Made by a program: the position numbers and the translations under genes
In this document: positions 35,243-38,265 of the stretch, one piece after another
How positions within the stretch are numbered: position 1 is the stretch's first letter
Layout of the letters: every line of letters begins with the position of its first letter
NCBI GenBank assembly: GCA_020632915.1
Contig: JACKEP010000023.1
Span: 1-64,000, forward strand
Origin: Alphaproteobacteria bacterium
Lineage (GTDB): Bacteria; Myxococcota_A; UBA796; GCA-2862545
Direction of reading: 5' to 3'
Length of the DNA stretch: 64,000 nt
Notes under the pieces: model-generated
Told to the model about the DNA's origin: nothing
Database searches by the model: none
What the model saw: the letters and a program-made list of their open reading frames with translations, nothing else

Positions 35243-35260
35243 TCCTACATTCTGGTAGGA
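35243..35260 (+). promoter_or_regulatory. imperfect palindrome TCCTACA-N5-GTAGGA upstream of the sigma-54 activator gene (putative autoregulatory site)
   Basis: Same half-site as the palindromes upstream of the amt sigma-54 promoter (see 36789-36840). Confidence 0.35.
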
Positions 35261-35268
35261 CCGTGGAT

Positions 35269-36777
35269 GTGGCGGAGCGAGCCGTGGTGCAGCGGTGGCT
35301 GGGCTTCCTGGACGACGTCGCGGCAGGCGTGCAGGACGGTGCGGAGCTCGACGAGCTGCTCGGCCCGATCCTGCGGGGCCTGTCGGAGCGCGTCGGGCTG
35401 CACCGCGCCACGCTCATGCTGGCCGACCGGACCGACGGCCACCTCTACATCGTGGCGGCCCACGGGCTCACCCCGAGCGAGGTGCGGCGCGTCCGCTACG
35501 AGCCCGGGGAAGGGGTGAGCGGACGGGTGATGGCCACCGGCGAGGCGATGATCGTGCCGCGGGTGTCCCAGGACGACGCGTTCGCCGACAAGCTGCGGGC
35601 GCGGGAGGGCGGCCTCGACGGCGCGTTCGTGTGCGTGCCCGTGCGCCACGGCCCCACCGCCTACGGCACGCTGTCGGCCTGGCGGCTCGACCCCGACGAC
35701 GTCGACCTCGACGACGATCGCCGCGTGCTGCACGTGGTGGCGGCGCTGCTCGCCACGTCGGTGGAGCGCCACGTCAGCGGCACGGCCACGCCCGACGTCG
35801 AGCCCACGGGCGCCCAGCCCAACAACCTGATCGGGCGCAGCAAGGTCATGCGCGAGGTCTACGCGCTGGTCGAGCAGGTGGCCCCATCGTCCACCACCGT
35901 GCTGCTGCGCGGCGAGAGCGGCACCGGCAAGGAGCTCGTCGCCCACGCGCTCCACGAGGGCTCGCCGCGCTCGCGGGGACCGTTCGTCAAGGTCAACTGC
36001 GCCGCGCTGCCCGCCACGATCATCGAGTCGGAGCTGTTCGGTCACGAGCGGGGCTCGTTCACGGGCGCCACCGAGCGCCGTCGCGGCCGCTTCGAGCTCG
36101 CCCACGGCGGCACGATCTTCCTCGACGAGATCGGTGATCTCGGCCCCGAGACGCAGATCAAGCTGCTGCGCGTGCTGCAGGAGCGCGAGATCGAGCGCGT
36201 GGGCTCAGCCCAGCCGATCCCGGTCGACGTGCGCGTGATCGCGGCCACCAGCCGCGACCTCGAAGCGATGATGGCCGACACCCTGTTCCGGCCCGACCTG
36301 TACTACCGGCTCAACGTCTTCCCGATCCACCTGCCGCCGCTGCGCGAGCGCCGGGCCGACGTGCTGCTGCTGACCGACCACTTCGTCGAGGTGTTCAACC
36401 GCGCCCACGGCAAGACCGTGCGCCGCATCGCCACGCCCGCCATCGACCTGCTGATGAGCTACCACTGGCCGGGCAACGTCCGCGAGCTCGAGAACTGCGT
36501 GGAGCGTGCGGTGCTGCTGTGCCGCGGCGACGTGCTGATGGCCCACCACCTGCCGCCGTCGCTGCAGGGCCCCGAGCCCGAGGATCCGGCGGTGCAGGCC
36601 GGGCTCGACGCCACGCTGGGGGCGGTCGAGAAGGACCTGATCCTCGACGCGCTCAAGGCCAACCGGGGCAACATGGCCGCCGCCGCCCGCCAGCTGCACA
36701 TCACCGAGCGGATCATGGGCCTGCGGATCAAGCACTACGACATCGATCCGGCCCGGTTCAAGGTGCGCACCCGATAG
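35269..36777 (+). CDS. sigma-54-dependent transcriptional activator (GAF-AAA+-HTH, NtrC/Fis family)
   Basis: GAF-like N-terminus. AAA+ core [21 protein letters not shown]-type motif [21 protein letters not shown], and GNVRELEN. C-terminal [22 protein letters not shown]. Start is a GTG around 35263-35269. Confidence 0.85.
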
Positions 36778-36788
36778 CGCGCTGCCAA

Positions 36789-36840
36789 GATCCTACATCA
36801 GTGTAGGACGCGCCGGATCGAGCTACGTGGATGTAGGATC
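36789..36840 (+). promoter_or_regulatory. putative enhancer (UAS): palindromic GATCCTACA / TGTAGGATC half-sites
   Basis: GATCCTACA at 36789-36797, TGTAGGA at 36802-36808 (a tight palindrome with a 4-nt spacer), and TGTAGGATC at 36832-36840. The sites lie 60-110 nt upstream of the sigma-54 -24 element. Confidence 0.5.
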
Positions 36841-36901
36841 AGGGGGCCCCTACGGAGGCGCCGCGACGGTCGAACCGACCGGATCCGCCGATCCACCGTC
36901 G

Positions 36902-36916
36902 TGGCACACCGCTTGC
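36902..36916 (+). promoter_or_regulatory. sigma-54 (-24/-12) promoter TGGCAC-N5-TTGC for amt
   Basis: Exact match to the consensus GG-N10-GC spacing: TGGCACaccgcTTGC. It lies ~36 nt upstream of the amt ATG. Confidence 0.7.
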
Positions 36917-36951
36917 CTTGCGCGCCGGCCTCCGACGCGGTGAGGTGCCCG

Positions 36952-38265
36952 ATGCGCAGCTGGTGGATGGTCACGGCGACGATGCTGGCCACGCCTGCGC
37001 TCGCGGACGACGGCACCGTCACCGCCGACGACGTGCTGTTCGTCGTCAACAACGTCTGGATGATGACGGCGGCGTTCCTGGTGTTCCTGATGCACCTGGG
37101 CTTCGCGACCCTCGAAGCCGGCATGGCGCAGGCCAAGAACACCGTCAACATCCTGTTCAAGAACGTGATGGTGATCGCCATCGGCCTGCTGACCTACGCG
37201 ATCGTAGGATTCGGGCTGATGTACCCGGGCGCGGAGTTCGCGGGCGGCTTCTTCGGCTTCGCCGGCTTCGGCCTGGGCACCGACGCCGCGGGACTCACCG
37301 CGGCCTACGCCGACGGGCACTACACGTACTGGACCGACTTCCTGTTCCAGGCGATGTTCGCCGCCACGGCGGCGACGATCGTTTCGGGGGCGGTGGCCGA
37401 GCGCATCAAGCTCCCCACGTTCCTGGTCTTCTCCACCCTGTACGTGGCCATCGTCTACCCGATGGTGGGCATGTGGCAGTGGGGCGGCGGCTTCCTGGCG
37501 GCGCTCGGCTTCCACGACTTCGCGGGCTCCACCATCGTCCACTCGGTGGGCGGCTGGGCAGCGCTCGTGGGGGCGTGGATGCTCGGTCCGCGTCAGGGTC
37601 GCTTCGAGCGGGGGATCCACCCCCACAGCCTGCCGTTGGCGACGATCGGCACGCTGCTGCTCTGGTTCGGGTGGTACGGGTTCAACGGCGGCTCCGTGCT
37701 GTCGGCCGACCCTGCCGCCACGTCGCTGGTGGTCGTCAACACCACGCTGGGTGCCGCGGCGGGCCTGGTGACGTGCGTGGCGGTCGCCTGGGTCCTGTTC
37801 AGGGTCCCCGACCTCTCGATGGCGATCAACGGCTCCCTGGCGGGCCTCGTGGGCATCACCGCGGGTGCTGACGTCTTCACACCGACGACCGCCATCATCG
37901 CAGGCTCCATCGCGGGGGTGCTCGTCCTGGCGGGCATCGTGGCGATGGACAAGCTGCGGATTGACGACCCGGTCGGGGCGGTGCCGGTACACCTCGTTTG
38001 TGGCGCGTGGGGCACGCTCGCCGTGGGTCTCCTCTCCCCGGAGGTCCACGTGGGCGCGCAGCTCGCCGGCATCGCCTCGACCGGAGCGTTCTGCCTCCCG
38101 GCCGCGGCCGTCCTGTTCTTCGGCCTGTCCAAGGCCATGGGACTGCGGGTCAGTGAGGATGAGGAGGCCCTGGGCCTCGACGTCGGTGAGCATGGCGCGA
38201 TGGCCTACACCGGCTTGCAGCACCTGACGCCGGACGAGATCACGGCGCTGTTGGCTGCGAAGTGA
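36952..38265 (+). CDS. amt: ammonium transporter (Amt family)
   Basis: Signal peptide, then VWMMTAAFLVFLMHLGFATLEAG, GAVAERIKL, FHDFAGSTIVH, LLLWFGWYGFNGGS and LAGLVGITAG, all typical Amt/MEP motifs. RBS GAGGTG. Confidence 0.9.
   Translation: MRSWWMVTATMLATPALADDGTVTADDVLFVVNNVWMMTAAFLVFLMHLGFATLEAGMAQAKNTVNILFKNVMVIAIGLLTYAIVGFGLMYPGAEFAGGFFGFAGFGLGTDAAGLTAAYADGHYTYWTDFLFQAMFAATAATIVSGAVAERIKLPTFLVFSTLYVAIVYPMVGMWQWGGGFLAALGFHDFAGSTIVHSVGGWAALVGAWMLGPRQGRFERGIHPHSLPLATIGTLLLWFGWYGFNGGSVLSADPAATSLVVVNTTLGAAAGLVTCVAVAWVLFRVPDLSMAINGSLAGLVGITAGADVFTPTTAIIAGSIAGVLVLAGIVAMDKLRIDDPVGAVPVHLVCGAWGTLAVGLLSPEVHVGAQLAGIASTGAFCLPAAAVLFFGLSKAMGLRVSEDEEALGLDVGEHGAMAYTGLQHLTPDEITALLAAK

What the first reader, a model, noticed from the sequence alone, without database searches (positions are those of the whole stretch)
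35243..36952. Complete sigma-54 regulatory unit visible in sequence: GAF-type enhancer-binding protein, palindromic UAS, -24/-12 promoter, and ammonium transporter
An exact sigma-54 promoter TGGCAC-N5-TTGC (36902-36916) lies ~36 nt upstream of the amt start. Sixty to 110 nt further upstream, GATCCTACA and TGTAGGATC half-sites form inverted repeats (a tight palindrome TCCTACA-N4-TGTAGGA plus a distal copy). These are classic enhancer geometry for an NtrC-family activator. The same half-site (TCCTACA-N5-GTAGGA) recurs just upstream of the adjacent GAF-AAA+-HTH activator gene, suggesting autoregulation. The activator has a GAF sensor rather than a receiver domain. Nitrogen control here may therefore be ligand-sensing rather than NtrB/NtrC phosphorelay.
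Basis: seen in the sequence. Interest (0 to 1): 0.6.

Follow-up and report, generated by a model that had tools for sequence, protein, structure and literature searches.

The report
Sigma-54 switch for an ammonium transporter
A NifA-like regulator gene sits next to an ammonium-transporter gene, with its own DNA binding sites and a sigma-54 promoter between them; the unit is real and conserved across many bacterial phyla, but it is an ordinary kind of nitrogen switch whose operator was already predicted in Desulfovibrio.

Summary
The palindrome is far beyond chance; the promoter match alone is not.

**The unit, in order on the + strand**
- An operator, TCCTACA-N4-GGTAGGA, at 35243-35260, just ahead of the regulator gene.
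- A GAF / AAA+ / HTH_8 sigma-54 activator gene, about 35263/35287 to 36777.
- Two operator palindromes 30 bp apart, at 36791-36808 and 36821-36838.
- TGGCAC-N5-TTGC at 36902-36916.
- An amt gene at 36952-38265.

**Comparative evidence**
- The same parts recur in relatives of 61-76% identity (three of four for the operator before the regulator gene).
- The operator core CTACA-N4-TGTAG recurs beside homologous regulators in at least six other phyla, ahead of amt-glnK, glnA, gltB and nifH.
- A DNA-only metagenome scan for operator plus promoter recovered the regulator gene next to 14 of 38 hits.

**Classification**
- The protein is NifA-like but scores below NCBI's NifA cut-off.
- It lacks the NifA, AnfA and VnfA cysteine motifs.
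- Its operator matches the published AnfA/VnfA type (TAC-N6-GTA), not the NifA type (TGT-N10-ACA).
- The same 14-mer was already predicted before Desulfovibrio nif operons.

**Verdict:** This is a new member of a known kind. What the GAF domain senses is untested.

The parts
35207..35235 (+). Possible sigma-70-type promoter of the regulator gene (TTGCCC-N17-TAGCTC). It would place the transcript start at about 35242, at the edge of the operator.
   Evidence: Read. The same arrangement, TTGCTC-N17-TAGCTG, is present in ortholog L081. The consensus scan does not call it. Weak and inferred.
35243..35260 (.). Operator before the regulator gene: TCCTACA-TTCT-GGTAGGA (core CTACA-N4-GGTAG, 1 mismatch). 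Proposed autoregulatory, repressing site.
   Evidence: A site at the same place, 10-25 nt before the start codon, is present in orthologs L081, L082, L083 and L084. Its half-sites are the only invariant block in the alignment.
35263..36777 (+). Sigma-54 enhancer-binding protein with GAF (28-166), AAA+ sigma-54 interaction domain (189-356, GSFTGA loop at 264), AAA lid and HTH_8 (452-492). The start may be 35287.
   Evidence: Pfam. NCBIfam NifA TIGR01817 gives 465.9 bits against a cut-off of 528.85. The best solved relative is A. vinelandii NifA, 9qq6_C. A 100% identical 496-aa protein is in NCBI. The HTH is conserved across phyla.
36791..36808 (.). Upstream activating site 1 (promoter-distal): the perfect palindrome TCCTACA-TCAG-TGTAGGA. 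Its centre is about -128 from the predicted transcript start.
   Evidence: It is conserved in L081, L084 and L085.
36821..36838 (.). Upstream activating site 2 (promoter-proximal): AGCTACG-TGGA-TGTAGGA (1 mismatch to the core). It lies 30 bp centre-to-centre from site 1, with its centre at about -98.
   Evidence: Tandem pairs 29-32 bp apart recur: 11 in 54 loci against 0 in simulations. Examples are L084, L085, L041, L036, L015 and L016.
36902..36916 (+). Sigma-54 (-24/-12) promoter TGGCAC-ACCGC-TTGC. The predicted transcript start is about 36928.
   Evidence: the only match in the window. TGGC.C-N5-.TGC is invariant in the alignment with L081, L084 and L085. The start site is inferred from the usual -12 spacing and has not been mapped.
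36942..36945 (+). Ribosome-binding site GAGG, 6 nt before the amt start codon.
   Evidence: GAGGTG plus ATG-CGC is also present in L081.
36952..38265 (+). Ammonium transporter gene (437 aa). It is monocistronic, with no glnK downstream; the next gene is convergent.
   Evidence: Pfam PF00909 at 375 bits. NCBIfam TIGR00836 at 402.1 bits, above the cut-off of 343.3. ORF map.

Best explanation
This is a one-component, sigma-54-dependent nitrogen switch.

Proposed mechanism:
1. The NifA-like activator binds as dimers to two CTACA-N4-TGTAG palindromes. These are centred about 98 and 128 bp upstream of the amt transcript start, 30 bp apart and therefore on roughly the same face of the helix.
2. When its N-terminal GAF domain reports nitrogen shortage, the AAA+ domains assemble into an active ring.
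3. The ring reaches the sigma-54 holoenzyme waiting at TGGCAC-N5-TTGC by DNA looping. It uses ATP to open the promoter, so the ammonium transporter is made.
4. A third copy of the operator lies directly in front of the activator's own coding sequence, where there is no sigma-54 promoter. There the bound protein most likely blocks its own sigma-70-type transcription, which is negative autoregulation.

What is shown:
- all the sequence parts;
- their conservation;
- the family-wide link between this operator, this regulator family and nitrogen genes.

What is inferred:
- actual binding;
- the transcript start;
- the sign of autoregulation;
- the signal. The most likely candidates, by analogy with NifA and AnfA, are 2-oxoglutarate or a PII protein acting on the GAF domain.
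For: 1. Domains: GAF + Sigma54_activat + HTH_8 without a receiver domain. The GSFTGA loop is a variant that Kazakov et al. list as activation-competent.

2. Palindrome statistics in the window: 0.03 expected.

3. Orthologous loci:
- L081 (76% identity) and L084 (64%) have operator, regulator gene, one or two operators, a GG-N10-GC promoter and amt.
- L085 (61%) has the same layout in front of glnA.
- The half-sites and the promoter GG/GC are the invariant columns.

4. Homologs at 43-53% identity in Spirochaetes, Verrucomicrobia, Latescibacterota, Acidobacteria (Vicinamibacteria), Kiritimatiellia and Bacteroidales:
- They sit before amt(-glnK) with the same core and a TGGCAC promoter.
- The core also precedes gltB, glnA, nifH and a nitrogenase component-1 gene.

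5. Enrichment over 54 regulator loci (588 kb), observed against simulated:
- 16 perfect cores against 0.12;
- 58 cores with at most 1 mismatch against 5.5;
- 11 tandem pairs 29-32 bp apart against 0.

6. Positions that were not part of the search pattern are biased, which is typical of a protein site: an A/T-rich spacer and tc...ga flanks.

7. The HTH sequence GNMAxAARxLxxTERxMGLRxxKY is conserved in most of these regulators across phyla.

8. The DNA-only scan of metagenomes for CCTACA-N4-TGTAGG-N65-95-TGGCAC-N5-TTGC gave 38 loci:
- 14 have the regulator homolog adjacent;
- the genes downstream include amt, glnK, glnA (types I and III) and gltB.

9. Published parallels:
- AnfA binds two TAC-N6-GTA palindromes between anfA and a sigma-54 anfH promoter (PMC7294313).
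- The GAF-type EbpA with RpoN activates amtB in Leptospira (review PMC12655853).
Against: - There is no experimental datum for this organism. Binding, transcript start and nitrogen response are all inferred.
- The promoter match alone is not statistically unusual.
- The link is not obligatory. In two close relatives (L082 and the P0002 locus) amt is missing, and L083 retains the operator and a promoter-like site but no amt was detected downstream. L086 (61% identity) has no operator at all.
- For the Desulfovibrio nifH sites, Kazakov et al. assigned the same 14-mer to a regulator. Its likely gene on pDV1 has a NifA-like HTH (TPRQMGYR) rather than the TERxMGLR helix seen here. The protein-to-operator assignment is therefore not airtight.
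- The proposed sigma-70 promoter of the regulator gene is not called by the consensus scan.
Confidence: 0.8

Rival explanations
1. The regulator is a true nif-specific NifA-type activator of a diazotroph. The amt promoter is a minor side target, and the main regulon (nifHDK) lies elsewhere in the genome.
For: - The best family match is NifA, and the best solved relative is A. vinelandii NifA.
- Homologs in L015, L022, L025 and L032 have the same operator before nifH or nitrogenase genes.
- The same holds before nifH on D. vulgaris pDV1.
- Some relatives pass the NifA cut-off and are named NifA.
Against: - The score is below the NifA cut-off, and the match stops before the DNA-binding domain.
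- The HTH alone does not hit NifA.
- There is no TGT-N10-ACA anywhere in the window.
- No nif gene was found among the window ORFs scanned.
- In this clade the gene next to the regulator is amt or glnA, never nif.
- L001 passes the NifA cut-off yet sits before amt-glnK.
Confidence: 0.1
2. The inverted repeats act as RNA or DNA structure rather than as protein sites. One possibility is a hairpin ending regulator-gene transcription or stabilising its 3' end. Another is that they bind a different, unlinked transcription factor.
For: - As RNA, 36775-36850 folds into a long hairpin of -32.7 kcal/mol with z = -2.8.
- The first palindrome starts 14 nt after the stop codon.
Against: - No U-tract follows, and no terminator is called.
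- The sequence itself, not merely the pairing, is kept from 33% to 74% G+C genomes.
- The same site occurs before the regulator gene and before unlinked nitrogen genes.
- It co-occurs with this regulator family in a DNA-only scan.
- The hairpin is a by-product of two tandem palindromes.
- No Rfam family matches.
Confidence: 0.05
3. The unit is a decaying or silent relic. The promoter and operators persist, but the circuit is no longer used in this organism.
For: - In L082 the operator-like site and a perfect TGGCAC-N5-TTGC remain, but only a fragment of amt is left.
- L083 keeps an operator and a promoter-like site with no recognisable amt.
Against: - In the window all parts are intact.
- The regulator and amt are full-length with strong domain scores.
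- Codon-position G+C of amt is typical of expressed genes: GC3 is 0.93.
- The operators are perfect or one mismatch off.
Confidence: 0.05

Closest known systems
AnfA / anfH promoter of Rhodobacter capsulatus, and VnfA of Azotobacter vinelandii (PMC7294313)
   Same: - A GAF-AAA+-HTH activator gene is followed, in the same intergenic region, by two similar palindromic sites (distal and proximal) and an RpoN promoter.
- The site consensus is TAC-N6-GTA (VnfA: GTAC-N6-GTAC). The window's CTACA-N4-TGTAG fits it exactly.
   Different: - The target here is amt, not nitrogenase genes.
- The GAF domain has a single cysteine and no AnfA/VnfA-type cysteine motif.
- The organism is not a proteobacterial model.
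- Sequence relatedness of the HTH to AnfA/VnfA could not be tested, because no AnfA/VnfA sequence was available.
Predicted DVUA0143 and DVU1949 regulons of Desulfovibrionales (Kazakov et al. 2015, PMC4641369)
   Same: - The very same 14-mer type (CTACAAAAATGTAG, CTACATTTTTGTAG) is listed as candidate sites before nitrogenase operons. I confirmed it on pDV1 about 85 nt upstream of a TGGCAC-N5-TTGC promoter.
- DVU1949 is a one-component activator. It has a predicted sigma-54 regulon of amt-glnB-glnD, glutamine synthetases and glutamate synthase-like operons, and a related motif, TTTACA-N4-TGTAAA.
   Different: - Those are computational predictions within one order of bacteria.
- There the CTACA motif is tied to nif, and a variant motif to assimilation genes. 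Here the CTACA motif itself precedes amt.
- The likely DVUA0143 gene has a NifA-like HTH unlike the window protein's.
EbpA-RpoN control of amtB in Leptospira interrogans (Hu et al. 2017, as summarised in PMC12655853)
   Same: - A GAF-type, not phosphorylated, enhancer-binding protein with sigma-54 directly activates an ammonium transporter gene.
- The activator is needed for growth at low nitrogen.
   Different: - EbpA is described as FhlA-like with two GAF domains.
- The review read here does not give its binding sequence, and the original paper was not available.
- Homology to the window protein was not tested.
NtrB/NtrC control of glnAp2 and glnK-amtB in enterobacteria (established knowledge)
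   Same: - A sigma-54 promoter is served by tandem palindromic enhancer sites about 100-140 bp upstream, roughly three helical turns apart.
- The activator represses its own or neighbouring sigma-70 promoters by binding over them.
- The target includes the ammonium transporter.
   Different: - There is no receiver domain and no adjacent kinase.
- The operator sequence differs.
- The NtrC model scores well below its cut-off: 335.5 bits against 558.6.
NifA (TIGR01817; A. vinelandii NifA structure 9qq6)
   Same: - It is the best-scoring family and the best solved relative over the GAF and AAA+ domains.
- The three-domain layout is the same.
   Different: - The score is below the curated cut-off, and the match ends at residue 430, before the DNA-binding domain.
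- The HTH alone does not retrieve NifA.
- There is no TGT-N10-ACA site.
- There is no interdomain cysteine motif.
- No nif genes are nearby.

Membership tests
Bacterial enhancer-binding proteins (sigma-54 activators) | Central AAA+ sigma-54 interaction domain | tested here: met
   PF00158 at 239.6 bits covers residues 189-356 over the full profile. AAA_lid_14 scores 98.8 bits.
Bacterial enhancer-binding proteins (sigma-54 activators) | GAFTGA loop that contacts sigma-54 | tested here: met
   GSFTGA is at residue 264. The same variant is present in L081-L083. Kazakov et al. list GSFTGA among variants that keep activity.
Bacterial enhancer-binding proteins (sigma-54 activators) | C-terminal Fis-type HTH and cognate upstream sites near a -24/-12 promoter | tested here: met
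   HTH_8 covers residues 452-492. Two palindromes lie 64-111 nt upstream of TGGCAC-N5-TTGC. Binding itself was not tested.
NifA (NCBIfam TIGR01817 equivalog) | Whole-protein score at or above the curated cut-off of 528.85 bits | tested here: not met
   The score is 465.9 bits. The match covers residues 23-430 only, which is profile 14-438 of 534. Relatives score 471-532 bits.
NifA (NCBIfam TIGR01817 equivalog) | Upstream activator sequence TGT-N10-ACA before target promoters | tested here: not met
   There are zero matches in the whole 64-kb window, against 4.7 expected.
NifA (NCBIfam TIGR01817 equivalog) | Control of nif genes | tested here: inconclusive
   No nif gene was found among the window ORFs scanned. 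Only 64 kb of the genome is visible. More distant homologs do have the operator before nifH.
AnfA / VnfA | [quoted passage not shown] | tested here: met
   All three window sites read TAC-N6-GTA. Two are in tandem before the sigma-54 promoter.
AnfA / VnfA | Conserved cysteine motif in the GAF domain | tested here: not met
   There is a single cysteine (C124) in the first 180 residues. The motif requirement is taken from PMC7294313.
AnfA / VnfA | Sequence orthology to AnfA or VnfA | not tested
   No AnfA or VnfA sequence was available in the tools' collections.
NtrC | N-terminal receiver domain phosphorylated by NtrB | tested here: not met
   There is no Response_reg hit; the N-terminus is GAF. 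NtrC TIGR01818 scores 335.5 bits against a cut-off of 558.6.
Sigma-54 promoter | GG and GC elements 10 nt apart (TGGCAC-N5-TTGC) at a suitable distance from the gene start | tested here: met
   There is an exact match at 36902-36916, 35 nt before the ATG. It is conserved in orthologs.
Sigma-54 promoter | Transcript start about 12 nt downstream of the GC, dependent on RpoN and an activator | not testable with these tools
   This needs 5' end mapping and genetics.
Amt/AmtB ammonium transporters | Score above the family cut-offs | tested here: met
   PF00909 scores 375.1 bits. TIGR00836 scores 402.1 bits against a cut-off of 343.3. The protein is below the AmtB and 'marine subtype' equivalog cut-offs.

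The most novel reading that the evidence does not exclude
The window regulator belongs to an experimentally uncharacterised sister group of NifA, often mislabelled 'NifA'. This group would act as a one-component master nitrogen regulator in many phyla outside the classical proteobacterial models: Myxococcota-like MAGs, Spirochaetota, Verrucomicrobiota, Kiritimatiellia, Latescibacterota, Acidobacteriota, Bacteroidota and Desulfobacterota.

It would use a single, nearly universal operator (tcCTACA-wwww-TGTAGga) with sigma-54 to drive amt-glnK, glnA, gltB and, in diazotrophs, nifH. It would thereby fill the role that NtrC, NtcA or GlnR fill elsewhere.
Probability: 0.45. Interest if true: 0.55.

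Novelty: new member of a known kind. Interest (0 to 1): 0.35.

Why it matters
For this window, the finding gives a confident functional annotation. The 'sigma 54-interacting transcriptional regulator' is the local nitrogen activator of amt, and its operators and promoter are mapped to the base.

More broadly, the same operator and HTH recur from 33% to 74% G+C genomes in many phyla, before the core nitrogen-assimilation genes. Three consequences follow:
- A simple pattern, CTACA-N4-TGTAG followed by TGGCAC-N5-TTGC, can be used to predict nitrogen regulons in uncultured lineages.
- Automatic 'NifA' labels on these proteins should not be read as evidence of nitrogen fixation.
- One binding experiment on any member would probably annotate the whole family.

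The principle is not surprising. Activator-dependent sigma-54 control of ammonium uptake is textbook, and the operator type is already in the literature.

Tried and rejected
**Searches that gave little or nothing**
- The genome-collection scan with the whole regulator was swamped by the conserved AAA+ peptide IFLDEIGD. It returned no close relatives. Close orthologs had to be fetched one by one.
- The exact-sequence look-up of the 100% identical NCBI protein P0001 found no contig.
- The consensus sigma-70 and terminator scan of 35100-37000 found nothing.
- Rfam found nothing in the window.
- The HTH segment alone, searched against solved structures, found only ZraR weakly and not NifA.
- The original Leptospira EbpA papers are not held. 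EbpA's binding sequence and its relation to this family were therefore not compared.
- Several literature searches for a description of this family outside Desulfovibrio found none. Absence from an open-access library is not proof of absence.

**Ideas considered and rejected**
- A NifA UAS: no TGT-N10-ACA is present.
- An NtrC-type response regulator: there is no receiver domain.
- A terminator hairpin: there is no U-tract, and sequence rather than pairing is conserved.
- A repeat or mobile element: there are only three copies in 64 kb, all at these two promoters.

**Unresolved**
- The held text of Additional file 2 of Kazakov et al. appears to have rotated row labels. I therefore did not rely on it to assign DNA-binding domains.

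
Full report
**1. The observation**

- TGGCAC-ACCGC-TTGC lies at 36902-36916.
- GAGG lies at 36942-36945.
- ATG lies at 36952 and opens a 437-aa ORF that ends at 38265.
- The perfect palindrome TCCTACA-TCAG-TGTAGGA lies at 36791-36808.
- TGTAGGATC lies at 36832-36840.
- TCCTACA-TTCT-GGTAGGA lies at 35243-35260.

The two palindromes share one register, TCCTAC-N6-GTAGGA.

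The 18-mer pattern, with up to two mismatches, occurs only at these two places in 64 kb. The expectation is 0.03, and none of 100 shuffles reach the observed count. The heptamer occurs four times, all here, against 0.69 expected. The promoter match is unique in the window but is not significant on its own: 4.1 matches with at most 1 mismatch are expected.

Pfam gives GAF, Sigma54_activat, AAA_lid_14 and HTH_8 for the upstream ORF, with no receiver domain. It gives Ammonium_transp (375 bits) for the downstream one.

The regulator's true start is one of the GTGs at 35263-35287. NCBI's identical 496-aa protein implies 35287. The 941-aa ORF from 33952 is a high-G+C artefact.

**2. A correction to the anatomy**

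Scanning with the core CTACA-N4-TGTAG (at most 1 mismatch) finds three sites in the window: 35245, 36793 and 36823. It lies exactly 30 bp centre-to-centre from the first and is the promoter-proximal one.

With the C of TTGC taken as -12, the transcript start is predicted near 36928. The sites are then centred near -128 and -98. This spacing is inferred, not mapped.

**3. Close relatives**

The protein search found a 100% identical NCBI protein from a MAG labelled Alphaproteobacteria. It also found a series of 60-79% identical proteins from MAGs labelled Alphaproteobacteria, Myxococcota or Proteobacteria. Their contigs were fetched one at a time.

| Locus | Identity | What is there |
|---|---|---|
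| L081 | 76% | Same gene order: S8 peptidase, DUF1295, DnaJ-like, regulator, amt. TCCTACCGGAATGTAGGA lies 10 nt before the regulator start. TCCTACATGTTTGTAGGA, a degenerate second site and TGGCCC-N5-TTGC precede amt. |
| L084 | 64% | A site 10 nt before the regulator start. Two sites 30 bp apart and TGGCAC-N5-GTGC precede amt. |
| L085 | 61% | Three sites, two of them 30 bp apart, and TGGCAC-N5-TTGC precede a glutamine synthetase gene. |
| L082 | 76% | The site before the regulator is kept. An operator-like site and a perfect sigma-54 promoter lie after it, but only a fragment of amt remains. |
| L083 | 71% | The site before the regulator is kept. An operator-like site and a promoter-like site lie after it, but there is no recognisable amt. 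|
| L086 | 61% | No operator. The regulator sits before 2-oxoacid dehydrogenase genes. |

In alignments of these intergenic regions, mean column identity is 52% and 61%. The invariant columns are the half-sites and the promoter's TGGC/TGC.

**4. Distant relatives**

The genome-collection scan returned 46 full-length homologs at 38-53% identity. Many are named NifA by their sources.

A local tblastn showed amt, usually with glnK, next to the regulator gene. It lies directly downstream in Spirochaetes (L001-L003, L036), Verrucomicrobia (L006), Latescibacterota (L017), Vicinamibacteria (L029) and Bacteroidales (L041), and divergently upstream in Desulfobacterales (L013).

Several of their intergenic regions carry the same core. 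Examples:
- L001 has GATCCTACAAATATGTAGAG with TTGGCACGTTCTTTGCA.
- L041 has AATCCTACAATTATGTAGGATT with a second site 31 bp away.
- L017 has AAACTACAAAATTGTAGTTT with TTGGCACGTTTCTTGC.
- L036 has two sites 30 bp apart.

Where amt is not adjacent, the core precedes other nitrogen genes:
- gltB (L011);
- amt further away (L008);
- glnA (L048);
- nifH (L015, L022, L025);
- a nitrogenase component-1 gene (L032).

Over 54 regulator loci (588 kb), counts against first-order Markov simulations were as follows:

| Measure | Observed | Simulated |
|---|---|---|
| Perfect cores | 16 | 0.12 |
| Cores with at most one mismatch | 58 | 5.5 |
| Tandem pairs 29-32 bp apart | 11 | 0 |

A symmetrised count matrix of 59 sites gives tcCTACA-wwww-TGTAGga. 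The spacer is A/T-rich even in G+C-rich genomes.

The C-terminal HTH is conserved in most of these proteins: ALKxxRGNMAxAARxLxxTERxMGLRxxKYxID. That fits a conserved operator.

**5. An independent test that does not start from the protein**

It returned 38 loci.
- Fourteen carry a homolog of the regulator next to the match.
- In twelve of these, the homolog ends just upstream of the match, as in the window.
- In two, it is divergent from the match.

Genes downstream include amt, glnK-amt-glnA, glnA of types I and III, glnA-gltB, an MFS/PTR2 transporter and a recurrent small secreted protein of unknown function. The operator therefore predicts the regulator and nitrogen genes, as well as the reverse.

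**6. What the protein is**

- NCBIfam's best model is NifA (TIGR01817) at 465.9 bits, below the cut-off of 528.85.
- The match covers only the GAF and AAA+ parts, profile positions 14-438 of 534.
- Relatives straddle the cut-off at 471-532 bits, always with the same truncated coverage.
- L001 passes the cut-off although it sits before amt-glnK.
- The best solved relative is A. vinelandii NifA (9qq6_C), aligned over residues 18-494.
- The HTH segment alone does not retrieve NifA.
- There is no TGT-N10-ACA anywhere in the window.
- There is no cysteine cluster in the GAF domain or in the interdomain linker.
- The sigma-54 contact loop is GSFTGA in this clade, a variant considered functional.

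The protein is thus a NifA-like activator with its own DNA-binding domain. Membership in NifA proper fails on score, operator and cysteine motif.

**7. Comparison with what is published**

[quoted passage not shown] They lie between anfA and a sigma-54 anfH promoter. The paper defined the consensus TAC-N6-GTA and quoted GTAC-N6-GTAC for VnfA (PMC7294313). The window's CTACA-N4-TGTAG is TAC-N6-GTA, and the layout is the same.

*Desulfovibrionales.* Kazakov et al. list CTACAAAAATGTAG, CTACATTTTTGTAG and similar 14-mers as candidate sites before nitrogenase operons of five Desulfovibrionales. They assigned these sites to DVUA0143. They also describe a one-component activator, DVU1949, with two features:
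- a predicted regulon of amt-glnB-glnD, glutamine synthetases and glutamate-synthase-like operons;
- the related motif TTTACA-N4-TGTAAA (PMC4641369).

I confirmed the perfect site on plasmid pDV1 at 20132-20145. It lies about 85 nt upstream of TGGCACATCCCTTGC, before nifH.

*Leptospira.* The GAF-type EbpA with RpoN directly activates amtB and is needed at low nitrogen (review PMC12655853).

*PII input.* PII proteins are proposed to control AnfA through its GAF domain in R. palustris (PMC12093980). 2-oxoglutarate binding to the NifA GAF domain of A. vinelandii is established knowledge. These are the two plausible inputs here.

**8. Mechanism proposed**

*Shown:* the parts, their order, their conservation and their statistical association.

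*Inferred:*
- Dimers bind the two upstream sites.
- Under nitrogen limitation, the GAF domain releases the AAA+ domain.
- A ring forms and loops to the sigma-54 holoenzyme at 36902-36916.
- ATP hydrolysis opens the promoter and amt is transcribed.

*Autoregulation.* The site at 35243-35260 ends 2-26 nt before the start codon. No sigma-54 promoter is nearby. A possible TTGCCC-N17-TAGCTC promoter, shared with L081, would start transcription at the edge of the site.

In the Spirochaete homologs, the site lies between a TTGNCG and a TAGTAT hexamer, with spacing of 17-18 nt. That is the classic arrangement for repression by occlusion. I therefore read the autoregulation as negative, with moderate confidence.

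**9. Rivals**

- A true nif regulator with amt as a side target remains possible, because only 64 kb of the genome is visible. Everything local points to assimilation genes.
- A structural RNA or terminator role is unlikely. The region could fold at -32.7 kcal/mol, but that follows from two tandem palindromes. No U-tract follows. What is conserved is sequence, not pairing.
- A silent relic is unlikely, because all parts are intact.

**10. Verdict**

The unit is a sound, base-resolved example of a known regulatory design, and its operator type is already in the literature.

This analysis adds two things. The same regulator subfamily and operator are spread over many phyla and cover the core nitrogen-assimilation genes. 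The automatic 'NifA' label on these proteins is unreliable.

Interest is moderate to low for the window itself. It would be somewhat higher if the family-wide reading is confirmed experimentally.

Noticed in passing
L082:5541-5918: In a 76%-identical ortholog locus, amt is gone. An operator-like palindrome (GCTACGAAAATGTAGC, 5541-5556) and a perfect TGGCAC-N5-TTGC (5620-5634) remain. They are followed by a short stretch still similar to Amt residues 334-379 (tblastn E = 0.001, 5784-5918). This looks like a recent internal deletion of amt.
   Followed up: partly
L083:5020-5616: A 71%-identical ortholog keeps a perfect operator (GTCCTACACAGATGTAGGGT at 5020) and a promoter-like TGGCATGGGGTGTGC (5087) after the regulator gene. 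No amt or other recognisable gene follows in the next 500 nt.
   Followed up: partly
L087, L105, L118 (e.g. L118:3950-4387): A recurrent 145-aa protein with an N-terminal signal-like sequence (MNIKKALALTGS...) and no Pfam match lies directly downstream of operator plus sigma-54 promoter in three metagenome loci. It is a candidate unknown member of the nitrogen regulon. In Leptospira the EbpA targets also include putative lipoproteins.
   Followed up: no
L002:2289, L003:5891, L036:5892 (before the regulator genes): In the Spirochaete homologs, the operator before the regulator gene lies between a TTGNCG hexamer and a TAGTAT hexamer 17-18 nt apart. Its right half overlaps the -10-like hexamer. 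This is a conserved occlusion layout.
   Followed up: partly
L126 (NC_005863.1) 20034-20145; L125 1429-2976: On D. vulgaris plasmid pDV1, a perfect CTACAAAAATGTAG lies before the nifH sigma-54 promoter.

In the held text of Kazakov et al., Additional file 2, the DNA-binding domain printed in the row 'DVU1949' is the one encoded by the pDV1 gene DVU_RS16615. The one printed for 'DVUA0143' is not encoded on any N. vulgaris plasmid. The row labels seem rotated.
   Followed up: partly
L015:9430-9450, L025 and L030 (upstream of nifH): The nifH promoters in the Verrucomicrobia and Bacteroidota loci have a perfect TGGCAC at -24. At -12 they read GTGA or TGTGA instead of TTGC (e.g. TTGGCACACCGTGTGAAAT). 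This may be a lineage-specific -12 element.
   Followed up: no
window:44974-47415 (-), 51885-55097 (+), 55134-58406 (+): There are three large FG-GAP repeat proteins (813, 1070 and 1090 aa) within 14 kb. A 2160-aa ORF at 17004-23486 was not scanned, and several ORFs of 500-960 aa have no Pfam match.
   Followed up: no
window:1-64000: There is no TGT-N10-ACA in the whole window on either strand (0 found, 4.7 expected). This is a mild depletion, probably compositional.
   Followed up: no
window:38266-38384: amt here has no glnK partner, and the next gene is convergent (DUF6265 protein, 38385-39839, minus strand). The same holds in L081 and L084. Most distant homolog loci, by contrast, have amt-glnK.
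   Followed up: partly
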